Assembly: GCA_048938855.1 (NCBI GenBank)
Contig: JBHLLT010000001.1
Coordinates: forward strand, 288,124-352,123
Origin: Promethearchaeota archaeon
Lineage (GTDB): Archaea; Asgardarchaeota; Lokiarchaeia; Sigyniarchaeales; SOKP01
Direction: 5' to 3'
DNA length: 64,000 nucleotides
The notes under the pieces are model-generated. The model ran no database searches. It was not told the DNA's origin and saw nothing but the letters and a program-made list of their open reading frames with translations. This document shows, piece after piece, positions 8,027-54,009 of the stretch. A program made the translations under genes and the position numbers. Positions within the stretch are counted from its first letter, which is position 1. The number at the start of each line of letters is the position of its first letter.

Positions 8027-9769
8027 ATGGACCCTTATTATAATAAAATCTCCAATCCTTTATTAAAAAAATTCAAGGGAATTGTAGGAGAAAAAGCTTC
8101 TTTTGATGATTATGAAATAAGATATACTTATGCTTTTGGAGGTTCTATTTTTAATAAAGAGTGGATACCAGAATTAATCTTAATACCACAAAACACAAAA
8201 CAAGTTTCTGAGATTTTAACTTTAGCTAATAAAAATAAGATTCCAATAACGCCTCGAGGAAGCGGTACAAGCTTATCATCGGGCTCATTAAGCCCGTATG
8301 GAGGTATAATATTAGATTTAAGTCAAATGAATGGAATAATAAAGGTAGATATTGAAAATAATTTAGTTGAAGTTGAACCAGGAGTAATCTGTGATGATTT
8401 AAATGAAGTATTAAAGCCATATGGATATTTTTTTCCTCCAGATCCCGGATCGAGTTCTGTTGCGACGATAGGAGGAATGGTTGCTAATAATGCAGGAGGG
8501 ATTCAAGCCTTTAAGTATGGTGTTACAAAAAGTTATGTTTTATATTTGGAGGTAGTGTTAGCAGACGGAAAAATTTTAAATTTGGGGTCAAATGTTTTAA
8601 AATCAGTATCATCATATAACATCAAAGATCTTTTTATTGGTTCTGAAGGCACTTTAGGTGTTATTACAAAGATAGGTTTAAGAATTCGCCCTTTACCAAA
8701 AGCAAGGAAATTAGGTTTATTTATTTTTGAAAATGTTGATAATTTAAAGGAAGCTGTTTTAGAGATAAGAAGAAAAGGGATTATACCAAATTTATTGGAA
8801 TTTATGGATAAAGTCATTTTAAAGGCAGTCACTGAATTTTTGGGTGGTGAATTCTACGATTTTCCAGATGGATACGTTTTATTAGCTGAAGTTGACGGAT
8901 ACACTAAAACTGAAGTTGAAGAATCATTTGCAGCTATGTTTGATATTATTATCCAAAAAAATCCAATCTATCATAAAGTTGCTTTAACAGATGAAGAAAG
9001 AGAAAGATTAATCCTTGCTAGAAAAGCAAATCTCCCTGCATTATCAAGAATAAGACCAAATACATGTGTTGAAGATTGTACCATTCAAATTTCAAAGTTT
9101 TCTGAGGTTATTAAAAAAATTGAGAGTATACCTAAGAAAATTAATGCTAAAAACTTATTAGTGGCAATTATATGCCATATGGAAGGAAACCTACATCCTA
9201 CATTTCTATTTAATGAAAATGATCAACAGGATGTAGAAGACTTCAGAAAAGCGATAGATTATTTGTACAAAGAAATCATAATCCCTGCAGGAGGTTCAAT
9301 TACTGGTGAACATGGAATTGGAAAAATCAAAACCCCTTATTTAGAGCTAGAACATGACAAAAATGTTATTAATTTGATGATACAGATTAAGAAATTCTAT
9401 GATCCTAACATGATATTAAATCCGGGAATCGGAAAGGGTGATTTTCGAGAGATTAAATCTTCAAATATAAAACGAGTTCTGAAGAAACAGTCTGATGGAA
9501 TATTAGAACTGAAATGTATGAGATGTGGATTTTGCATTTCTTGTCCTTCAAGGATAAATTATGCTTTAGAAACTTACAGTCCAAGAGGTAGGTTATGCCT
9601 ATTAAACGGTTTAGTACATGGTGATTTAGAGTTAAATGATTTAATAATAGATGTCTTTCACACATGTACTTTATGTGGGCTCTGTCAAACTAAATGTCCT
9701 GCTGGTGTAAATACAACAGAAATTTTTGAAAAGACTCGGGAAATAATTCATGAGGGCTGTAAAAAATAA
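8027..9769 (+). CDS. FAD-linked 2-hydroxyacid (D-lactate/glycolate) dehydrogenase, GlcD type, with a fused 2x[4Fe-4S] domain
   Basis: PRGSGTS, PDPGS, GSEGTLG, GNLHP, GEHGIG, NPG; then CMRCGFC..CP and CTLCGLC...CP. Confidence 0.85.
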   Translation: MDPYYNKISNPLLKKFKGIVGEKASFDDYEIRYTYAFGGSIFNKEWIPELILIPQNTKQVSEILTLANKNKIPITPRGSGTSLSSGSLSPYGGIILDLSQMNGIIKVDIENNLVEVEPGVICDDLNEVLKPYGYFFPPDPGSSSVATIGGMVANNAGGIQAFKYGVTKSYVLYLEVVLADGKILNLGSNVLKSVSSYNIKDLFIGSEGTLGVITKIGLRIRPLPKARKLGLFIFENVDNLKEAVLEIRRKGIIPNLLEFMDKVILKAVTEFLGGEFYDFPDGYVLLAEVDGYTKTEVEESFAAMFDIIIQKNPIYHKVALTDEERERLILARKANLPALSRIRPNTCVEDCTIQISKFSEVIKKIESIPKKINAKNLLVAIICHMEGNLHPTFLFNENDQQDVEDFRKAIDYLYKEIIIPAGGSITGEHGIGKIKTPYLELEHDKNVINLMIQIKKFYDPNMILNPGIGKGDFREIKSSNIKRVLKKQSDGILELKCMRCGFCISCPSRINYALETYSPRGRLCLLNGLVHGDLELNDLIIDVFHTCTLCGLCQTKCPAGVNTTEIFEKTREIIHEGCKK

Positions 9770-39565: not shown

Positions 39566-39892
39566 TCATAAGTTTTCGATAGATTTTATTTTCCACAAGT
39601 AATTTTCAAGATCTACCTTAAATCCATCTGAAATTTTAATCCCTTCCTGTTCTAAAAGGTTTTTTTGATATTGTCGGTCTTCTATTGATTTAAGAGATAT
39701 GTTTCCATTTGAACTGATGACCCTATGCCAAGGTAAATTATATTTTTTGGAGGATGAATGTAAAACCCATGAAACTTGGCGAGCAGCTTTTGGATTTCCT
39801 GCTAGTTTGGCAATGAATCCATACGTAAGAACCTTTCCTGCTGGTATGGATTTAATAATATGAATAATTTGCTCAGTAAAATCACTAGGAAT
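39566..39892 (-). CDS. Alkyltransferase-like (ATL, MGMT family) protein with apparent ATT start (not in the ORF track)
   Basis: (I/M)PSDFTEQIIHIIKSIPAGKVLTYGFIAKLAGNPKAARQVSW..LPWHRVISSNG..LLEQEG; PWHRV is the ATL signature. Confidence 0.85.
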   Translation of the reverse strand: MPSDFTEQIIHIIKSIPAGKVLTYGFIAKLAGNPKAARQVSWVLHSSSKKYNLPWHRVISSNGNISLKSIEDRQYQKNLLEQEGIKISDGFKVDLENYLWKIKSIENL

Positions 39893-49327: not shown

Positions 49328-51691
49328 CTAATCAATTTTAATGTTTACACAACAATTTTCACAAACAATGGCTTCTCCATTACTAAATTTCTCAATAGCT
49401 TCAGATGGTATGAGTGTAAAACAATATGGACACAAACATGATAAAATCGCAATTCTCATATCATAGAATCCTTCTTCAGAAGTAATTATGTTATTTTCAA
49501 TTAATTTTTGTCTTACACGATCTCCTATCTCAGCTAGAAATGCTGTTATTTGTTCTTCATTATTACCAGAAACTTCAAATTCTAAGGTCTTTCTATCTCC
49601 ATCTAATAGAACATTCATTACAAGTCTTTCTTTCTTAACTTTTGTAATCCCAAAAAACCATGCTTCTCCAAAATTATTATCTTCAAAGAACTCATTAGAG
49701 ATTAATTTTATATCAAATTGTTCTAAGACTGCGAGAATCGAAGAAAAAATTGAGCTTGCCTTATCAGAATCGATAATCGGAAACACTTTTTTATCTCGGT
49801 GTGTAAGATTACGTCTTAAACTTTTAACTCTGGCTAAATTAGCATCAGATTCTGTGAAAAATATTGGACATGAAATTCCAATCATTTTCGGTTTCATGGG
49901 TATTGCATGCGGTTTATCTTTCACATCAAAAAAACCTACCGTGGCATTTACATGGCTCTCCATACAATTAAGTGGTTCAAAATAAAGAGATATTGCTCGT
50001 TTTTCTCTCGCTCCCAATTTTGGGATAAGAATACTATCTCCCTTTCGATTGTAATTTGGTTCATGTGTTATCCATTTTAAAGATTTAGGTAAATCAAAAG
50101 TTATCCGTAAATTAGTTAATGGATAATTTGTATTATTTATCAAGCCCATTTTGAATCTTACTTGTCCTCCAATAAATTCATATTCTCTAACAATCGAAAG
50201 TATCTGTTTTACAATCTCATCCTTAATTACCGAAGCAATTTCAAACTCGCTTAACTCATCCACATCAAATTTCACTCGTTTTTCCAATGGCTTTATCCCC
50301 ATTGATTTATCTAAACTCTCCTGAAGTTTTTCTTGAAACAGTCTGACGTTCAGAAGACGATTTTGTATTTTTTCTGCGTAATCTTCATATATTTTGAAGT
50401 TTTGAGCTTTCTTTTTTGCATCCGAATAAGTTAGTATAATATTATCTGTTAATTTAATTGTTTTAACTAATTCCTGATCTTGTATTTCATGAGCAGTTTT
50501 TAGTGCATCATCTGCCTTTTTAATCATCATTTCAATTTCTAACCGTTTAAGATTCTTAGTTATGTCTTCAATTTTCAATATAATTTCTATACGAGATGCT
50601 TTAGATTTACCATACATCTTCAATCGAAGTATGGAATTAAGATCCTCAATAGCTGCGCTCCACTCTTGTTTAGCAGTATTCAAATCTAATTCCATGTAGG
50701 CTTTTTGAGCATTTTGAAAATGCACTATAACAGCACCATTATAAGCATCATTTAAATTTTCTTTTAATATTCTAAGATTTACATTTATTAATTTCTTCTG
50801 GATAACCATCTTAGAAAAACGTGAATAAATTTGAATTGCTTCTTTCCAGCTTTCTATTGCTAGTTCATATGATTCTTCTTCATAATACCTACTTCCCTCA
50901 TCTATTAGTCTCTTAAAATTTTGTAAAAGTTTATCAAAATTGCTTGTATAGGGCAGATCTTTTTTGAGTTTGATGTGAGTGGGATAACTTTCCTTTTTTG
51001 AATACAGATAATTAATATCATAAAGAAAGTTAATCACTATTAGTGTTAAAAATAAATAAATAGAAGTAAGATAGTTAATTCCTGAAGTACTTAATGCTGA
51101 GGACACTATAAAAAATATCCCCAAGATTAAGATTAGCAAAACAAAAATTCTGAGTTGCATTTTTTCTAAAAAATCAGCAATATTAATTATATACGGTTTC
51201 GGTTCTGATGGAATTTTATCTATTTCCATGGAATCTCTATACAGACGATTTTTTATTATTGGTTTATAAATACGATATGATATAGAGTTTATCACCATAA
51301 TTCCCGCTAATAAGAGTCCTGAACCAACCCAAAAGCGTAATAGAATTTGAAGTATAAGCCAAGAATTTAAGAAAGATTCTAAACCAATACTACTTAAAAA
51401 TACACATATACCAAACCAGAATGGAAAAAACATAACTATTGATTTAATTCCCCTTCTGAACCTTTCTTTATTAAATGTCCCAAAATAATAAACAATAATC
51501 GACCATGAAAAGCAACCTATAAAATAAGAATGAAATACATTAAAATATACCTCACCATCCTCATAGAGTCCTCCCCATCCGAATATCCATTTAAAAAACA
51601 TTTCAAATTGATAATTGTAAACTGTAGGACTGAGTAATGTAAAACCCCCAAAAATCAAAATTGGTAAAAAATATTTGGATTTTTTATTCAT
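49328..51691 (-). CDS. Paralogue of the adjacent membrane protein, same architecture
   Basis: C-terminal ~290 aa strongly similar to 46982..49282; CPYC..CENC. Confidence 0.7.
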   Translation of the reverse strand: MNKKSKYFLPILIFGGFTLLSPTVYNYQFEMFFKWIFGWGGLYEDGEVYFNVFHSYFIGCFSWSIIVYYFGTFNKERFRRGIKSIVMFFPFWFGICVFLSSIGLESFLNSWLILQILLRFWVGSGLLLAGIMVINSISYRIYKPIIKNRLYRDSMEIDKIPSEPKPYIINIADFLEKMQLRIFVLLILILGIFFIVSSALSTSGINYLTSIYLFLTLIVINFLYDINYLYSKKESYPTHIKLKKDLPYTSNFDKLLQNFKRLIDEGSRYYEEESYELAIESWKEAIQIYSRFSKMVIQKKLINVNLRILKENLNDAYNGAVIVHFQNAQKAYMELDLNTAKQEWSAAIEDLNSILRLKMYGKSKASRIEIILKIEDITKNLKRLEIEMMIKKADDALKTAHEIQDQELVKTIKLTDNIILTYSDAKKKAQNFKIYEDYAEKIQNRLLNVRLFQEKLQESLDKSMGIKPLEKRVKFDVDELSEFEIASVIKDEIVKQILSIVREYEFIGGQVRFKMGLINNTNYPLTNLRITFDLPKSLKWITHEPNYNRKGDSILIPKLGAREKRAISLYFEPLNCMESHVNATVGFFDVKDKPHAIPMKPKMIGISCPIFFTESDANLARVKSLRRNLTHRDKKVFPIIDSDKASSIFSSILAVLEQFDIKLISNEFFEDNNFGEAWFFGITKVKKERLVMNVLLDGDRKTLEFEVSGNNEEQITAFLAEIGDRVRQKLIENNIITSEEGFYDMRIAILSCLCPYCFTLIPSEAIEKFSNGEAIVCENCCVNIKID

Positions 51692-51961
51692 TTAATACTT
51701 CCCTCATTAAATCTTTTTTATAAGTAAATTTTTATTTGTTGAATGAATTTCAGTTCTTTATTTTTATTGGAAGATTTAATAAATAGAAATTTAAACTTTT
51801 TCGTTTGCATTCAATCTTTTTGGAATTTTTATACATTTATTATATGTTGTTTAAAGTCAAAATTAAAAAAACCAAAGCATATCACACTTAATTTTGAAAT
51901 TCTTAGCAAATTTAAATCAAAAATTTTATTTAACATCTCTTACTACTGTTTATATACTATC

Positions 51962-52012
51962 TCGATGAATTATGAAAATATATCTAAAATTATGTATATT
52001 CGAAGGAGATGA
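51962..52012 (+). promoter_or_regulatory. Predicted k-turn in the rpl7ae leader, overlapping the Shine-Dalgarno
   Basis: UC-GA-UGAAU (51962-51970) pairs with AUUCG-AAG-GA-GA (51998-52009); SD-like GGAGATGA at 52005-52012. Confidence 0.55.
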
Positions 52013-52018
52013 TTAATA

Positions 52019-52390
52019 ATTTCTTATGTTAGATTTAAGATTCCAGATAAACTGAAAACTCAACTTAAGAATGCTTTAGGTCAAATAGCAGAAACAAGAG
52101 ATTCAAAGATTCGTAGAGGAATGAATGAAGTTACAAAATCGATTGAACGCGTTCAAGCAAAACTAGTGGTAATGGCTGAAGACGTAAGCCCTCCAGAAAT
52201 ACTCTTTCATATTCCCCTGTTATGTGAAGAAAAGGGTATACCTTATGGATATCTTTCCACTAAAAAAGAACTGGGAAATACAGTCAGAATCAACGTATCA
52301 TCAAGTGCTATTTCAGTTGAAAATGGAGGAACAGGTAATGATGGTATTTTAAATGATGTTATTAAAAAACTCGAAGAAGCAAAGAAGTAG
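52019..52390 (+). CDS. rpl7ae: 50S ribosomal protein L7Ae (eL8), start extended to ATT at 52019
   Basis: Conserved N-terminus (I/M)SYVRFKIPDKL...KIRRGMNEVTKSIER lies upstream of the ATG at 52121; AEDVSPPEI..LCEEK. Confidence 0.93.
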   Translation: MSYVRFKIPDKLKTQLKNALGQIAETRDSKIRRGMNEVTKSIERVQAKLVVMAEDVSPPEILFHIPLLCEEKGIPYGYLSTKKELGNTVRINVSSSAISVENGGTGNDGILNDVIKKLEEAKK

Positions 52391-52402
52391 TGGTGAGTAC
52401 AT

Positions 52403-52648
52403 ATGGTTAAATTAGACAAATCAAAAGGAGCATCAGTACAAGATTTATCTACTTCCGCACAGGTAATTCAAATTATTGGACGAACTGGTCTCACAGGAGA
52501 AATCACTCAAATCAAAGTACGCATTCTTGAGGGCCCCGATAAAAACCGAATCCTTACTCGAAATGTTAAAGGTCCTGTTAAAATGAATGATATTGTTATA
52601 TTGAGAGAAGTGGAACGAGAAGCTCGTAAAATTCGAGGGCGTCGTTAA
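52403..52648 (+). CDS. rps28e: 30S ribosomal protein eS28
   Basis: [30 protein letters not shown]. Confidence 0.97.
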
Positions 52649-52706
52649 TTGTCCTTATAAATCTCGATATTAAATTAAAAAAATACTTTTTTTCTCTATT
52701 CTCAAT

Positions 52707-52835
52707 TTAAATTTTAAATTTTATTATTTCATTTTTTAATTTTTCTGCCAAGTCTCTTAATTTATTTGCTGTTGACGAAACTTCTTCCGTTGAAGCAGAT
52801 TGTTGTTCAGTGGACGAATTTATCCTATTTATAGA
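52707..52835 (-). pseudogene. Remnant C-terminal helix of a methyl-accepting chemotaxis-like protein
   Basis: SINRINSSTEQQSASTEEVSSTANKLRDLAEKLKNEIIKFKI* with no upstream signalling domain. Confidence 0.65.
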
Positions 52836-52897
52836 ATAAGTATGTTTATATACTAAAATCAATTTAGTAGTACTTTATAAATCTGTGCTGAGATAGT

Positions 52898-53419
52898 TTG
52901 TATATGTTCTATACCATTCTCGATGATTTTATTCTTTATCAGCAGCTGACATTAAAACCTTTAAAATATTCGAATTTCGAACTCAAATTATATAATTATT
53001 TTTATAATAAGACACAAGTAAACCCATCATATATTATTCTCATTAATATCGAAGGTAATGATTTTATTTTCTTCTTCGTAAAAAAAGATGAATATTTCCA
53101 AGCAAAGACAGTTCTAAATTCAATAAGGAATAACATTAAGCATAAAAAAGTAATGATAATTAGATTTGATAATATTTTAATAAATCTAATCTTTAATTTA
53201 TTTCCTGATTTATGTATCGATGACATTGAGATTGAAATAAACAAAGAAAAAGCCAATTATGAAGTATCAATTTATTTTTTAAGAGAATTAAATATATATC
53301 ATATAGCGGTGGGAGAGCGTGGTAGTTATATTAAAGCTGTAAATAAGTTAATGGAGAAATATATTACGTTTAACAATTGTTATACCCCTCTAACGATAAA
53401 GTGTAGGGTAACTGATTAA
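52898..53419 (+). CDS. Divergent NusA-like KH-domain protein
   Basis: IFFFVK...KKVMII...NLFP...IAVGERGSYIKAVN. Confidence 0.55.
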   Translation: MYMFYTILDDFILYQQLTLKPLKYSNFELKLYNYFYNKTQVNPSYIILINIEGNDFIFFFVKKDEYFQAKTVLNSIRNNIKHKKVMIIRFDNILINLIFNLFPDLCIDDIEIEINKEKANYEVSIYFLRELNIYHIAVGERGSYIKAVNKLMEKYITFNNCYTPLTIKCRVTD

Positions 53420-53427
53420 TTTCAGAT

Positions 53428-54009
53428 TTATTTTCCCGATAAAGCTTTTAATTCTGCGATCAACCAGCAAACTTCTTCATAAGTGGATGAAGATTTGTAA
53501 ATTTCCTCTGCTTTTTTCTTTATTTCCCTCTCAGAAGCATCTTCTTTTATAAATTTCATTTGTATCTCTGCTAGTTTTCTACACAGATCTTTATAATCAT
53601 GGCTTTCTTGTGCAATTTTATGTGCTTCAATTGTAATTTCTGCTTCAAAATCTGGGTCTATACCCGCTTCTATAAGCTCTTGAGTATCATTAATGCGAAT
53701 TTTTAACTCAGGTCTTTTTGCAAATTCAGTGCCAGATTCTAATCCTTTCTTTAATAAGTCCATTAATACTAAAAATGATCCAAATTCTTGATTTTGCTTG
53801 AGAATTTGTATCTTAACGCGTTTACTTTTTTGTTCTTTCAGCTTCTCGGTTCTTTTTATGCTTAAATCTTTCTTTTTGCTAGAAACTTTTGAACCTATCC
53901 ATAAATATAAGGTTTTAATATCATCAATTAAAAAGACTTTGTTTTCATTGAAATCCACTTTGGTAACCTTTCTTAAAGCGCCATTTTCAGTAATGCTATA
54001 TAAAATCAT
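53428..54009 (-). CDS. Single-domain gelsolin with C-terminal helical X domain (1DGelX-like)
   Basis: KVFLIDDIKTLYLWIGSK..QNQE; repeated YKDLCRKLAE and YEEVCWLIAE. Confidence 0.75.
   Translation of the reverse strand: MILYSITENGALRKVTKVDFNENKVFLIDDIKTLYLWIGSKVSSKKKDLSIKRTEKLKEQKSKRVKIQILKQNQEFGSFLVLMDLLKKGLESGTEFAKRPELKIRINDTQELIEAGIDPDFEAEITIEAHKIAQESHDYKDLCRKLAEIQMKFIKEDASEREIKKKAEEIYKSSSTYEEVCWLIAELKALSGK

What the first reader, a model, noticed from the sequence alone, without database searches (positions are those of the whole stretch)
52005..52123. Essential L7Ae gene appears to initiate at AUU
Seen: 34 codons of conserved L7Ae N-terminus precede the first in-frame ATG. They are bounded by an in-frame TGA (52010-52012) and contain no ATG/GTG/TTG. 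ATT-52019 lies 6 nt after GGAGATGA. With the ATL case (same ATAATT context) and many TTG/GTG starts in the window, this suggests relaxed, SD-guided start-codon selection in this lineage. That would cause systematic mis-annotation and could serve regulation, as AUU does for bacterial infC.
Basis: partly seen in the sequence, partly recalled or inferred. Interest (0 to 1): 0.7.

Follow-up and report, generated by a model that had tools for sequence, protein, structure and literature searches.

The report
AUU start codon of archaeal L7Ae
In this uncultured Asgard (Promethearchaeota) archaeon and every sampled species of its genus, the essential ribosomal/RNA-binding protein L7Ae has ATT (sometimes ATA) exactly where all sister genera have ATG, behind a long ribosome-binding site, so it almost certainly starts translation at AUU, one case of a family-wide habit that makes gene finders cut such proteins short.

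Summary
In the L7Ae frame, TGA (52010-12) is followed by TTA, ATA, ATT (52019-21), then Ser-Tyr-Val. The first ATG/GTG/TTG is ATG-52121 (Met35).

The codon before Ser2 is ATT or ATA in all 27 sampled species of the genus. It is ATG in 28 genomes of 12 sister genera and in 19 genomes of three other families. Codons 2-35 evolve like coding sequence, and Ser2 aligns with residue 2 of a solved archaeal L7Ae. Assembly error, a Met35 start and frameshifting from ATG-52009 are therefore very unlikely.

AUU sits 5 nt after AGGAGAUGAU, which matches the genome's own 16S tail at 9 of 10 positions. Genome-wide, ATT and ATA show a sharp peak at this same register: 27 ORFs under strict criteria, including uS10, IscU and an SDR. 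aIF1 also begins at ATT/ATC/ATA in all 13 genera of the family. The initiator tRNA is a normal CAU tRNA. I derived this pattern before finding that earlier agents of this scan had reported it for the same genome and others.

Added here: the roughly 64-nt leader carries two adjacent k-turn motifs that overlap the ribosome-binding site. They are invariant across 13 genera and recur in three more families, which fits the published L7Ae feedback mechanism. No direct evidence of initiation exists.

The parts
51918..51933 (+). Promoter: BRE-like CAAAAA followed by the TATA box TTTTATTTAA
   Evidence: This block is conserved across the genus in the upstream alignment, while its flanks vary. Its role as a promoter is inferred from the archaeal consensus.
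51954..52018 (+). Predicted 5' leader of l7ae mRNA, about 64 nt. The transcription start is inferred to lie about 26 nt downstream of the TATA centre.
   Evidence: Near-invariant sequence begins at about 51954 in 24 species. No transcript data were available. The predicted fold is weak (-7.9 kcal/mol, z = 0.68).
51962..51970 (+). Bulged strand of the outer k-turn motif: UC (C helix), GAU bulge, G-A, then A-U
   Evidence: C, AUGA and U are invariant in 54 leaders from 13 genera. [quoted passage not shown]
51971..51983 (+). Bulged strand of the inner k-turn motif (UAU bulge, G-A) plus the 5' arm of the A/U hairpin (51976-51983)
   Evidence: AUGA and AAUAU are invariant. The stem pairs are kept, including a compensatory AU to UA change in 9 sequences.
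51994..52009 (+). 3' arm of the hairpin (51994-52001), inner G-A (52002-3), 2-bp spacer (52004-5), outer G-A (52006-7), and outer C helix G-A (52008-9)
   Evidence: GAA-N-GAG is invariant in 54 sequences. The C-helix pair covaries, UA to CG, in one genus. The covariance model finds this element only once in the genome, at 61.5 bits.
52004..52013 (+). Extended Shine-Dalgarno sequence AGGAGAUGAU. It overlaps the non-bulged strands of the k-turn motifs.
   Evidence: It matches 9 of 10 positions complementary to the 16S 3' end (...GGAUCACCUCCU) found on contig C40 of the same genome. UGAU followed by a 5-nt spacer is kept in all species of the genus.
52019..52021 (+). ATT start codon of l7ae
   Evidence: It is homologous to the ATG of 47 outgroup genomes and is ATT or ATA in all 27 species of the genus. 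Its register d=15 coincides with the genome-wide ATT/ATA peak.
52019..52390 (+). l7ae coding sequence: 123 codons plus the TAG stop
   Evidence: Pfam PF01248, E = 3e-21. Residues 2-122 align with residues 2-119 of a solved 123-aa archaeal L7Ae, 8hku. Variable sites in codons 2-35 number 18, 10 and 31 at codon positions 1, 2 and 3.
52403..52648 (+). rps28e, the next gene downstream, with an ATG start behind GGTGA
   Evidence: Pfam PF01200, E = 5e-29.

Best explanation
l7ae is transcribed with a leader of about 64 nt. The small ribosomal subunit docks on an unusually long Shine-Dalgarno sequence (AGGAGAUGAU, 52004-52013). This places AUU-52019, 5 nt downstream, in the P site.

The ordinary initiator Met-tRNA (anticodon CAU) reads AUU with a mismatch at the third base. 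The product is a full-length 123-residue L7Ae beginning Met-Ser-Tyr-Val.

The ATG-to-ATT change happened once, on the stem of this genus, and has been kept as ATT or ATA ever since. It occurred inside a family where AUU, AUA and AUC starts at one fixed SD spacing are common, and where the start-codon proofreading factor aIF1 is itself encoded behind such a codon.

The leader also carries two adjacent k-turn motifs whose non-bulged strands overlap the SD. Free L7Ae most likely binds there and hides the ribosome-binding site, giving negative feedback.

Shown: the sequence layout, the homology, the conservation, the SD register and the genome-wide statistics.

Inferred: initiation at AUU with methionine, the transcription start, L7Ae binding to the leader, and any regulatory value of the weak codon.
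For: - The codon before Ser2 is ATT (25) or ATA (2) in 27 of 27 species of the genus. It is ATG in 28 genomes of 12 sister genera and in 19 genomes of families f2-f4. Named public records agree: 18 ATT, 5 ATA, 21 ATG.
- An in-frame TGA lies 2-3 codons upstream in every species of the genus.
- Codons 2-35 carry coding-type constraint. Ser2 uses 4 codons and Arg32 uses 6 while the residue stays invariant.
- Ser2 aligns with residue 2 of a solved L7Ae.
- The 16S tail was found in the same genome. Canonical starts with an SD of 6 nt or more lie at d=13-18. ATT-52019 has d=15.
- Genome-wide under strict criteria, counts at d=13-17 are ATG 81, TTG 22, GTG 6, ATT 22 and ATA 14. Of these, 17 ATT and 10 ATA lie at exactly d=15. 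The control codons TTA, TAT, AAT and TTT stay flat.
- Pfam domains of uS10, IscU, an SDR, a USP, a rubrerythrin, an OYE and a response regulator begin 2-14 residues after such codons.
- The initiator tRNA gene has a normal CAU anticodon.
- aIF1 begins at ATT, ATC or ATA in 13 of 13 genera of the family.
- aIF1 is reported to discriminate against AUU in Sulfolobus (PMC4705826).
- The leader k-turn motifs are invariant and show two compensatory pair changes. The element occurs once in the genome and recurs upstream of l7ae in families f2-f4 with a different hairpin sequence.
- The published mechanism is in PMC5539422 and PMC6298567.
Against: - There is no direct evidence of initiation: no N-terminal peptide, ribosome footprint, toeprint or transcript 5' end.
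- In this species ATA-52016 lies one codon upstream, and one NCBI gene call (124 aa) starts there, so the first one or two residues are not certain.
- AUU is a weak start in every tested system, about 10% of AUG in S. aureus (PMC13009471). That is odd for an abundant ribosomal protein.
- The leader's predicted fold is no better than shuffled sequence (z = 0.68). Its stem is alternating A/U, so sliding one strand by 2 also pairs 88% of cells.
- Two k-turns only 2 bp apart may not be able to fold at the same time.
Confidence: 0.85

Rival explanations
1. In this particular species translation starts one codon earlier, at AUA-52016, giving a 124-residue protein that begins Met-Ile-Ser-Tyr.
For: ATA is also used as a start codon in this genome. 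A public NCBI protein of 124 aa starts exactly there.
Against: The position is AAA, AAT, AAC, AAG or GAT in most species of the genus; only ATT/ATA at 52019 is conserved. Its SD register is d=12, where ATT and ATA counts are at background (3 each, against 17 and 10 at d=15).
Confidence: 0.07
2. Translation starts at the out-of-frame ATG-52009 and reaches the L7Ae frame by a programmed +1 frameshift, or the assembly carries a 1-nt indel.
For: An NTG (ATG, GTG or TTG) sits 10 nt upstream of the ATT in all species of the genus. The stretch between them is A/T-rich.
Against: That NTG is part of the conserved UGAU of the SD, so any of A, G or T in front of it makes a 'start codon' automatically. 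It lies directly after GGAG, at register d=5, where no start in this genome was seen. The sequence between it and Ser2 varies with no conserved slippery site. Outgroups have a plain ATG at the ATT position. Twenty-seven independent assemblies agree, which excludes an indel error.
Confidence: 0.01
3. The gene starts at ATG-52121 (Met35), as simple gene finders call it, and the upstream 34 codons are untranslated leader.
For: It is the first canonical start. The 89-aa product is what public collections hold for this exact sequence. Met35 is invariant in the 24 species of the genus examined for this.
Against: The upstream 34 codons show third-position-biased variation and invariant residues encoded by 4-6 synonymous codons. 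They align residue for residue with solved L7Ae structures from residue 2. A Met35 start would remove the first roughly 20 positions of the Pfam domain. No SD precedes ATG-52121.
Confidence: 0.01

Closest known systems
AUU/AUA start codons of bacterial infC (IF3), E. coli pcnB, and S. aureus cvfC1, ccpN and citZ
   Same: A near-cognate AUH codon read by the initiator tRNA, placed behind a strong or extended, start-proximal Shine-Dalgarno sequence and conserved among relatives (PMC13009471; PMC4705826). Here too the ATT/ATA starts use the start-proximal GGUGAU part of the SD with a fixed 5-nt spacer.
   Different: The domain is Archaea. The reviews I could read list only AUG, GUG and UUG for archaea (PMC7531240). 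The fidelity factor is aIF1, not IF3. The frequency is much higher: dozens of genes in one genome, against a handful. The gene is a ribosomal protein, not the fidelity factor.
L7Ae autoregulatory k-turn in the l7ae 5' leader (Daume et al. 2017, PMC5539422; Huang, Ashraf and Lilley 2019, PMC6298567)
   Same: [quoted passage not shown] It is predicted to be unstructured without protein.
   Different: Here there are two k-turn motifs in tandem, only 2 bp apart, sharing one hairpin. The outer one has -1b:-1n = C:G, which none of the six published leaders has. The arrangement is conserved across at least four families of the order. Binding was not tested.
Archaeal ribosomal protein L7Ae/eL8 (PF01248), for example PDB 8hku and 1sds
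   Same: Full-length homologue of 123 residues with the same N-terminus (Ser-Tyr-Val-Lys/Arg-Phe) and the Asn-Glu-Val-Thr-Lys RNA-binding stretch, followed by rps28e.
   Different: Only the start codon and the leader differ.

Membership tests
Ribosomal protein L7Ae/eL8 (PF01248) | Significant match to the family profile above the curated cut-off | tested here: met
   75.3 bits against a cut-off of 22.1, E = 3e-21.
Ribosomal protein L7Ae/eL8 (PF01248) | Full-length colinearity with solved archaeal L7Ae, N-terminus included | tested here: met
   Residues 2-122 align with residues 2-119 of 8hku, E = 4e-28.
SD-led near-cognate (AUU/AUA) start codon, infC/pcnB type | No in-frame ATG, GTG or TTG between the upstream stop and the conserved N-terminus | tested here: met
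   TGA 52010-12, then TTA, ATA, ATT, then Ser-Tyr-Val. The same holds in all 27 sampled species of the genus.
SD-led near-cognate (AUU/AUA) start codon, infC/pcnB type | The near-cognate codon occupies the position of the canonical start of orthologues | tested here: met
   ATG directly before Ser-Tyr in 47 outgroup genomes.
SD-led near-cognate (AUU/AUA) start codon, infC/pcnB type | Shine-Dalgarno sequence at functional spacing | tested here: met
   A 9-of-10 match to the anti-SD. Register d=15 lies inside the d=13-18 range of canonical starts and on the ATT/ATA peak.
SD-led near-cognate (AUU/AUA) start codon, infC/pcnB type | Direct evidence of initiation at the codon (N-terminal peptide, toeprint or initiation-arrested footprint) | not testable with these tools
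   No proteomic, ribosome-profiling or transcript data are available for these uncultured organisms.
SD-led near-cognate (AUU/AUA) start codon, infC/pcnB type | Autoregulation through the fidelity factor (specific to infC) | not testable with these tools
   The only evidence is the parallel that aIF1 itself begins at ATT, ATC or ATA in 13 genera.
L7Ae-binding k-turn in the l7ae leader | A 3-nt bulge followed by tandem sheared G.A and A.G pairs | tested here: met
   There are two such motifs. All four G/A positions of each are invariant in 54 leaders. This is a sequence-level test only.
L7Ae-binding k-turn in the l7ae leader | Flanking C and NC helices supported by covariation | tested here: inconclusive
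   90.9% of cells are paired and three pairs change on both sides; the covariation score of 0.124 is above every shuffle and every slid control. However, the stem is alternating A/U, so sliding by -2 still pairs 88%. Families f2-f4 keep the hairpin with a different, G+C-richer sequence.
L7Ae-binding k-turn in the l7ae leader | Ribosome-binding site adjacent to or inside the motif | tested here: met
   The GGAG of the SD is the outer G.A step plus the C helix.
L7Ae-binding k-turn in the l7ae leader | Binding by L7Ae and repression of translation | not testable with these tools
   This needs EMSA or a reporter assay.
Programmed +1 ribosomal frameshift (prfB type) | Conserved slippery site and a usable upstream start | tested here: not met
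   The stretch between the NTG and Ser2 varies among species. The upstream NTG abuts GGAG at register d=5, which this genome never uses.

The most novel reading that the evidence does not exclude
The weak AUU/AUA start of l7ae is not merely tolerated. It is maintained by selection as a second control layer on top of k-turn feedback. In this Asgard family aIF1 is made from an AUH codon, an archaeal counterpart of the infC loop that arose independently. A set of SD-registered AUH genes, including L7Ae and uS10, would then form a regulon whose output follows aIF1 level, tying ribosome and RNP assembly to initiation stringency.
Probability: 0.25. Interest if true: 0.85.

Novelty: new variant of a known kind. 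Interest (0 to 1): 0.62.

Why it matters
The reviews of archaeal translation that I could read allow only AUG, GUG and UUG as start codons. Here an essential, universally conserved ribosomal protein gene has kept AUU or AUA for the whole history of a genus of Asgard archaea, the closest known prokaryotic relatives of eukaryotes. It does so alongside dozens of other genes and the fidelity factor aIF1 itself.

- **Annotation.** Public gene calls for this one gene have four different lengths (89, 93, 112 and 124 aa) and none matches the most likely product. Proteome-based work on Asgard archaea inherits truncated N-termini.
- **Mechanism.** This gives a natural system for asking how aIF1, the eIF1 homologue, sets start-codon stringency, and whether an infC-like loop exists in archaea.
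- **RNA structure.** The tandem k-turn leader extends the known L7Ae feedback element.

Tried and rejected
- Rfam scan of 50000-54000 at a permissive threshold: only chance-level hits, and no family covers the leader.
- ARAGORN on the genome finds few tRNAs because many carry introns. An apparent GGG/CCC 'anticodon stem' on C71 turned out to be a T-arm. The true initiator tRNA was found by pattern on C31; it has a normal CAU anticodon, so a re-assigned initiator anticodon is rejected.
- rpl24e downstream of rps28e as another non-canonical start: no such ORF lies there.
- Thermodynamic folding of the leader: not better than shuffles. This fits a protein-dependent fold but gives no support on its own.
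- Selection against ATG inferred from ATT/ATA switches (2-3 switches, never G): too weak in a genome with 30% G+C to count as evidence.
- Literature searches for archaeal or Asgard AUU/AUA starts: nothing specific. A Haloferax ribosome-profiling paper set its near-cognate sites aside.
- A relaxed SD scan of the window missed the ATL gene because its SD core is only GGTG. It was found through the length of its NTG-free ORF instead.

Full report
**Observation.**
- GGAGATGA lies at 52005-52012.
- In the L7Ae frame, TGA (52010-12) is followed by TTA, ATA and ATT (52019-21), then TCT TAT GTT and so on.
- The first ATG/GTG/TTG is ATG-52121, 34 codons after the ATT.
- ATG-52009 is in another frame and its ORF stops after 7 codons.
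- The window is contig C34:288124-352123 of a 93-contig MAG with 30% G+C.
- Its closest named relatives are 'Promethearchaeota archaeon' MAGs, that is Asgard archaea.

**The protein.** From ATT-52019 the ORF gives 123 residues that match Pfam PF01248. Residues 2-122 align with residues 2-119 of a solved 123-residue archaeal L7Ae, so the ATT stands exactly where that protein has Met1.

Across 24 species of the genus, codons 2-35 vary at 18, 10 and 31 sites in codon positions 1, 2 and 3. Invariant residues are encoded by up to six synonymous codons. The stretch is therefore translated in this frame, and a Met35 start is excluded in practice. rps28e follows at 52403.

**Start codon across relatives.** I took the l7ae 5' ends from whole-genome searches and fetched the upstream DNA.
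- In all 27 sampled species of the window's genus, the codon before Ser-Tyr is ATT (25) or ATA (2), and an in-frame TGA lies 2-3 codons upstream.
- In 28 genomes of the 12 other genera of the same family, and in 19 genomes of three other families of the order, the codon is ATG.
- An independent scan of named public records gave 18 ATT, 5 ATA and 21 ATG with the same split.

ATG therefore changed to ATT once, on the stem of the genus. On a tree of the locus, ATT and ATA interchanged 2-3 times and G never appeared. This is suggestive of selection for a weak codon but is not proof in an A/T-rich genome. Agreement among dozens of independent assemblies removes the sequencing-error and indel explanations.

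**Ribosome-binding geometry.** The 16S 3' end of this genome is ...GGAUCACCUCCU. I define d as the distance from the start codon to the base aligned with the first A of the template AGGAGGUGAUCC.
- Canonical starts of long ORFs with an SD of 6 nt or more lie at d=13-18.
- The l7ae leader has AGGAGAUGAU (9 of 10 matches) at 52004-52013, which puts ATT-52019 at d=15.
- ATA-52016 is at d=12 and ATG-52009 at d=5; d=5 was never seen.
- All species of the genus keep UGAU, a 5-nt spacer, then ATT or ATA. The ATG-bearing sister genera have shorter SDs (GGAG or UGAG) with variable spacers.

**Genome-wide test.** I did this before opening the scan's earlier notes. The criteria were strict: an exact SD of 6 nt or more, a frame open for at least 100 codons, no in-frame NTG upstream before the stop, and none within 4 codons.
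- Counts at d=13-17 are ATG 81, TTG 22, GTG 6, ATT 22, ATA 14 and ATC 3.
- Of these, 17 ATT and 10 ATA lie at exactly d=15.
- TTA, TAT, AAT and TTT show no peak.
- These ATT/ATA sites use the start-proximal GGUGAU part of the SD.
- The ORFs behind them are ordinary, unrelated genes whose Pfam domains begin 2-14 residues after the ATT or ATA: uS10, IscU, a short-chain dehydrogenase, a universal stress protein, a rubrerythrin, an old-yellow-enzyme homologue, a response regulator and an ADP-forming acyl-CoA synthetase. Their first NTG lies up to 71 codons further on.

**Initiation machinery.** The initiator tRNA gene (C31) has the usual A1, three G:C pairs and a CAU anticodon, interrupted by an intron. 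AUU and AUA must therefore be read with a third-base mismatch, as in bacteria.

aIF1 (PF01253) has no canonical start near its N-terminus. It begins at a conserved ATT, ATC or ATA in all 13 genera of the family, whereas other families of the order mostly use ATG, GTG or TTG. uS10 starts at ATA in five genera and at GTG, ATG or TTG in others.

AUH use is therefore at least family-wide and older than the l7ae switch. aIF1 is reported to discriminate against AUU in Sulfolobus, and the AUU of infC gives IF3 autocontrol in bacteria (PMC4705826). In S. aureus, AUA and AUU starts sit behind extended SDs and give about 10% of AUG output (PMC13009471).

**The leader.** Upstream lies a genus-conserved BRE/TATA block (51918-51933). 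Near-invariant sequence then runs from about 51954 to the start codon.

In 54 leaders from 13 genera the invariant bases spell C-N-AUGA-NU-N-AUGA, then an A/U hairpin with a variable loop, then GAA-N-GAG. This reads as two k-turn motifs in tandem.
- The outer motif has a C helix UC/GA (the SD core), a GAU bulge and G.A/A.G pairs.
- Two base pairs follow.
- The inner motif has a UAU bulge, G.A/A.G pairs and the hairpin as its NC helix.
- All G.A positions are invariant. One stem pair (AU to UA) and one C-helix pair (UA to CG) change on both sides.
- A covariance model of the element hits only the l7ae leader in this genome: 61.5 bits, with the next hit at 23 bits. Only 150 of many candidates were scored.
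- The model finds full-length matches directly upstream of l7ae in families f2-f4, where the hairpin has a different, G+C-richer sequence.
- The predicted fold alone is weak (z = 0.68). The published l7ae leaders are likewise described as unfolded until L7Ae binds and hides the SD (PMC5539422 and PMC6298567).

Binding here is inferred. Whether two k-turns only 2 bp apart fold together is unknown.

**Rivals.**
- ATA-52016 is possible in this species, and one NCBI call uses it. It is not conserved and it sits off-register.
- A frameshift from ATG-52009 lacks a usable SD spacing and a conserved slippery site. That NTG is explained by the conserved UGAU of the SD.
- A Met35 start contradicts the coding constraint.

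**Public annotation.** The exact 89-aa truncated product is in public collections. Its 90% cluster also holds forms of 93 aa (internal ATT-52109), 112 aa (CTG-52052) and 124 aa (ATA-52016). The 123-aa form is absent.

**Relation to earlier notes of this scan.** After my own analysis I found that other agents had already reported genome-wide ATT/ATA/ATC starts in this same genome and in other Asgard genomes, including uS10 and aIF1. I re-tested those two genes and they hold.

New in this report:
- the dating of the l7ae switch to the genus stem;
- the fixed UGAU plus 5-nt geometry;
- the family-wide distribution of the aIF1 AUH start;
- the tandem k-turn leader.

**Verdict.** It is a new variant (archaeal, frequent, strictly SD-registered) of a known kind of start codon. 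Direct evidence of initiation is still missing.

Noticed in passing
window 39892-39566 (- strand): An alkyltransferase-like (ATL, PF01035) gene with no ATG/GTG/TTG for 115 of its 125 ORF codons. An ATT at 39892 sits at SD register d=15 behind GGGTG, and the Pfam domain begins 4 residues later.
   Followed up: partly
G000 contig C31:6428-6643 (locus L051) and loci L145-L165: The aIF1/SUI1 gene begins at a conserved ATT (ATC or ATA in some genera) in all 13 genera of the family. Other families of the order mostly use ATG, GTG or TTG. This parallels bacterial infC.
   Followed up: partly
G000 contig C70:173540-173845 (-), locus L032; loci L126-L144: Ribosomal protein uS10 starts at ATA here and in four other genera of the family, but at GTG, ATG or TTG in the remaining genera. 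Start codons of core genes are evolutionarily labile in this family.
   Followed up: partly
loci L026-L031, L076-L085 (families f2-f4), upstream of l7ae: The tandem motif CCGAUGAUU-N-AUGA, hairpin, GAA-N-GAGG recurs in the l7ae leaders of other families of the order, with a G+C-richer hairpin. The double k-turn leader is therefore order-wide.
   Followed up: partly
G000 contig C31 (- strand, near 9272 in reverse-complement coordinates): The initiator tRNA-Met gene carries an intron of about 31 nt next to the anticodon loop. Many other tRNA genes of this genome have introns, some at non-canonical positions, so ARAGORN finds only 13-24 of them.
   Followed up: no
window 52109-52111 and 52052-54: Public gene calls for this l7ae cluster begin at four different places: ATG-52121, internal ATT-52109, CTG-52052 and ATA-52016. 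This shows how inconsistently pipelines treat the gene.
   Followed up: yes
window 52005-52026: The minimum-free-energy fold pairs the SD (AGGAGAU) with AUUUCUU, which is the start codon plus the Ser2 codon. This could be a local SD/start hairpin, but it was not significant against shuffles and I did not check it for conservation.
   Followed up: no
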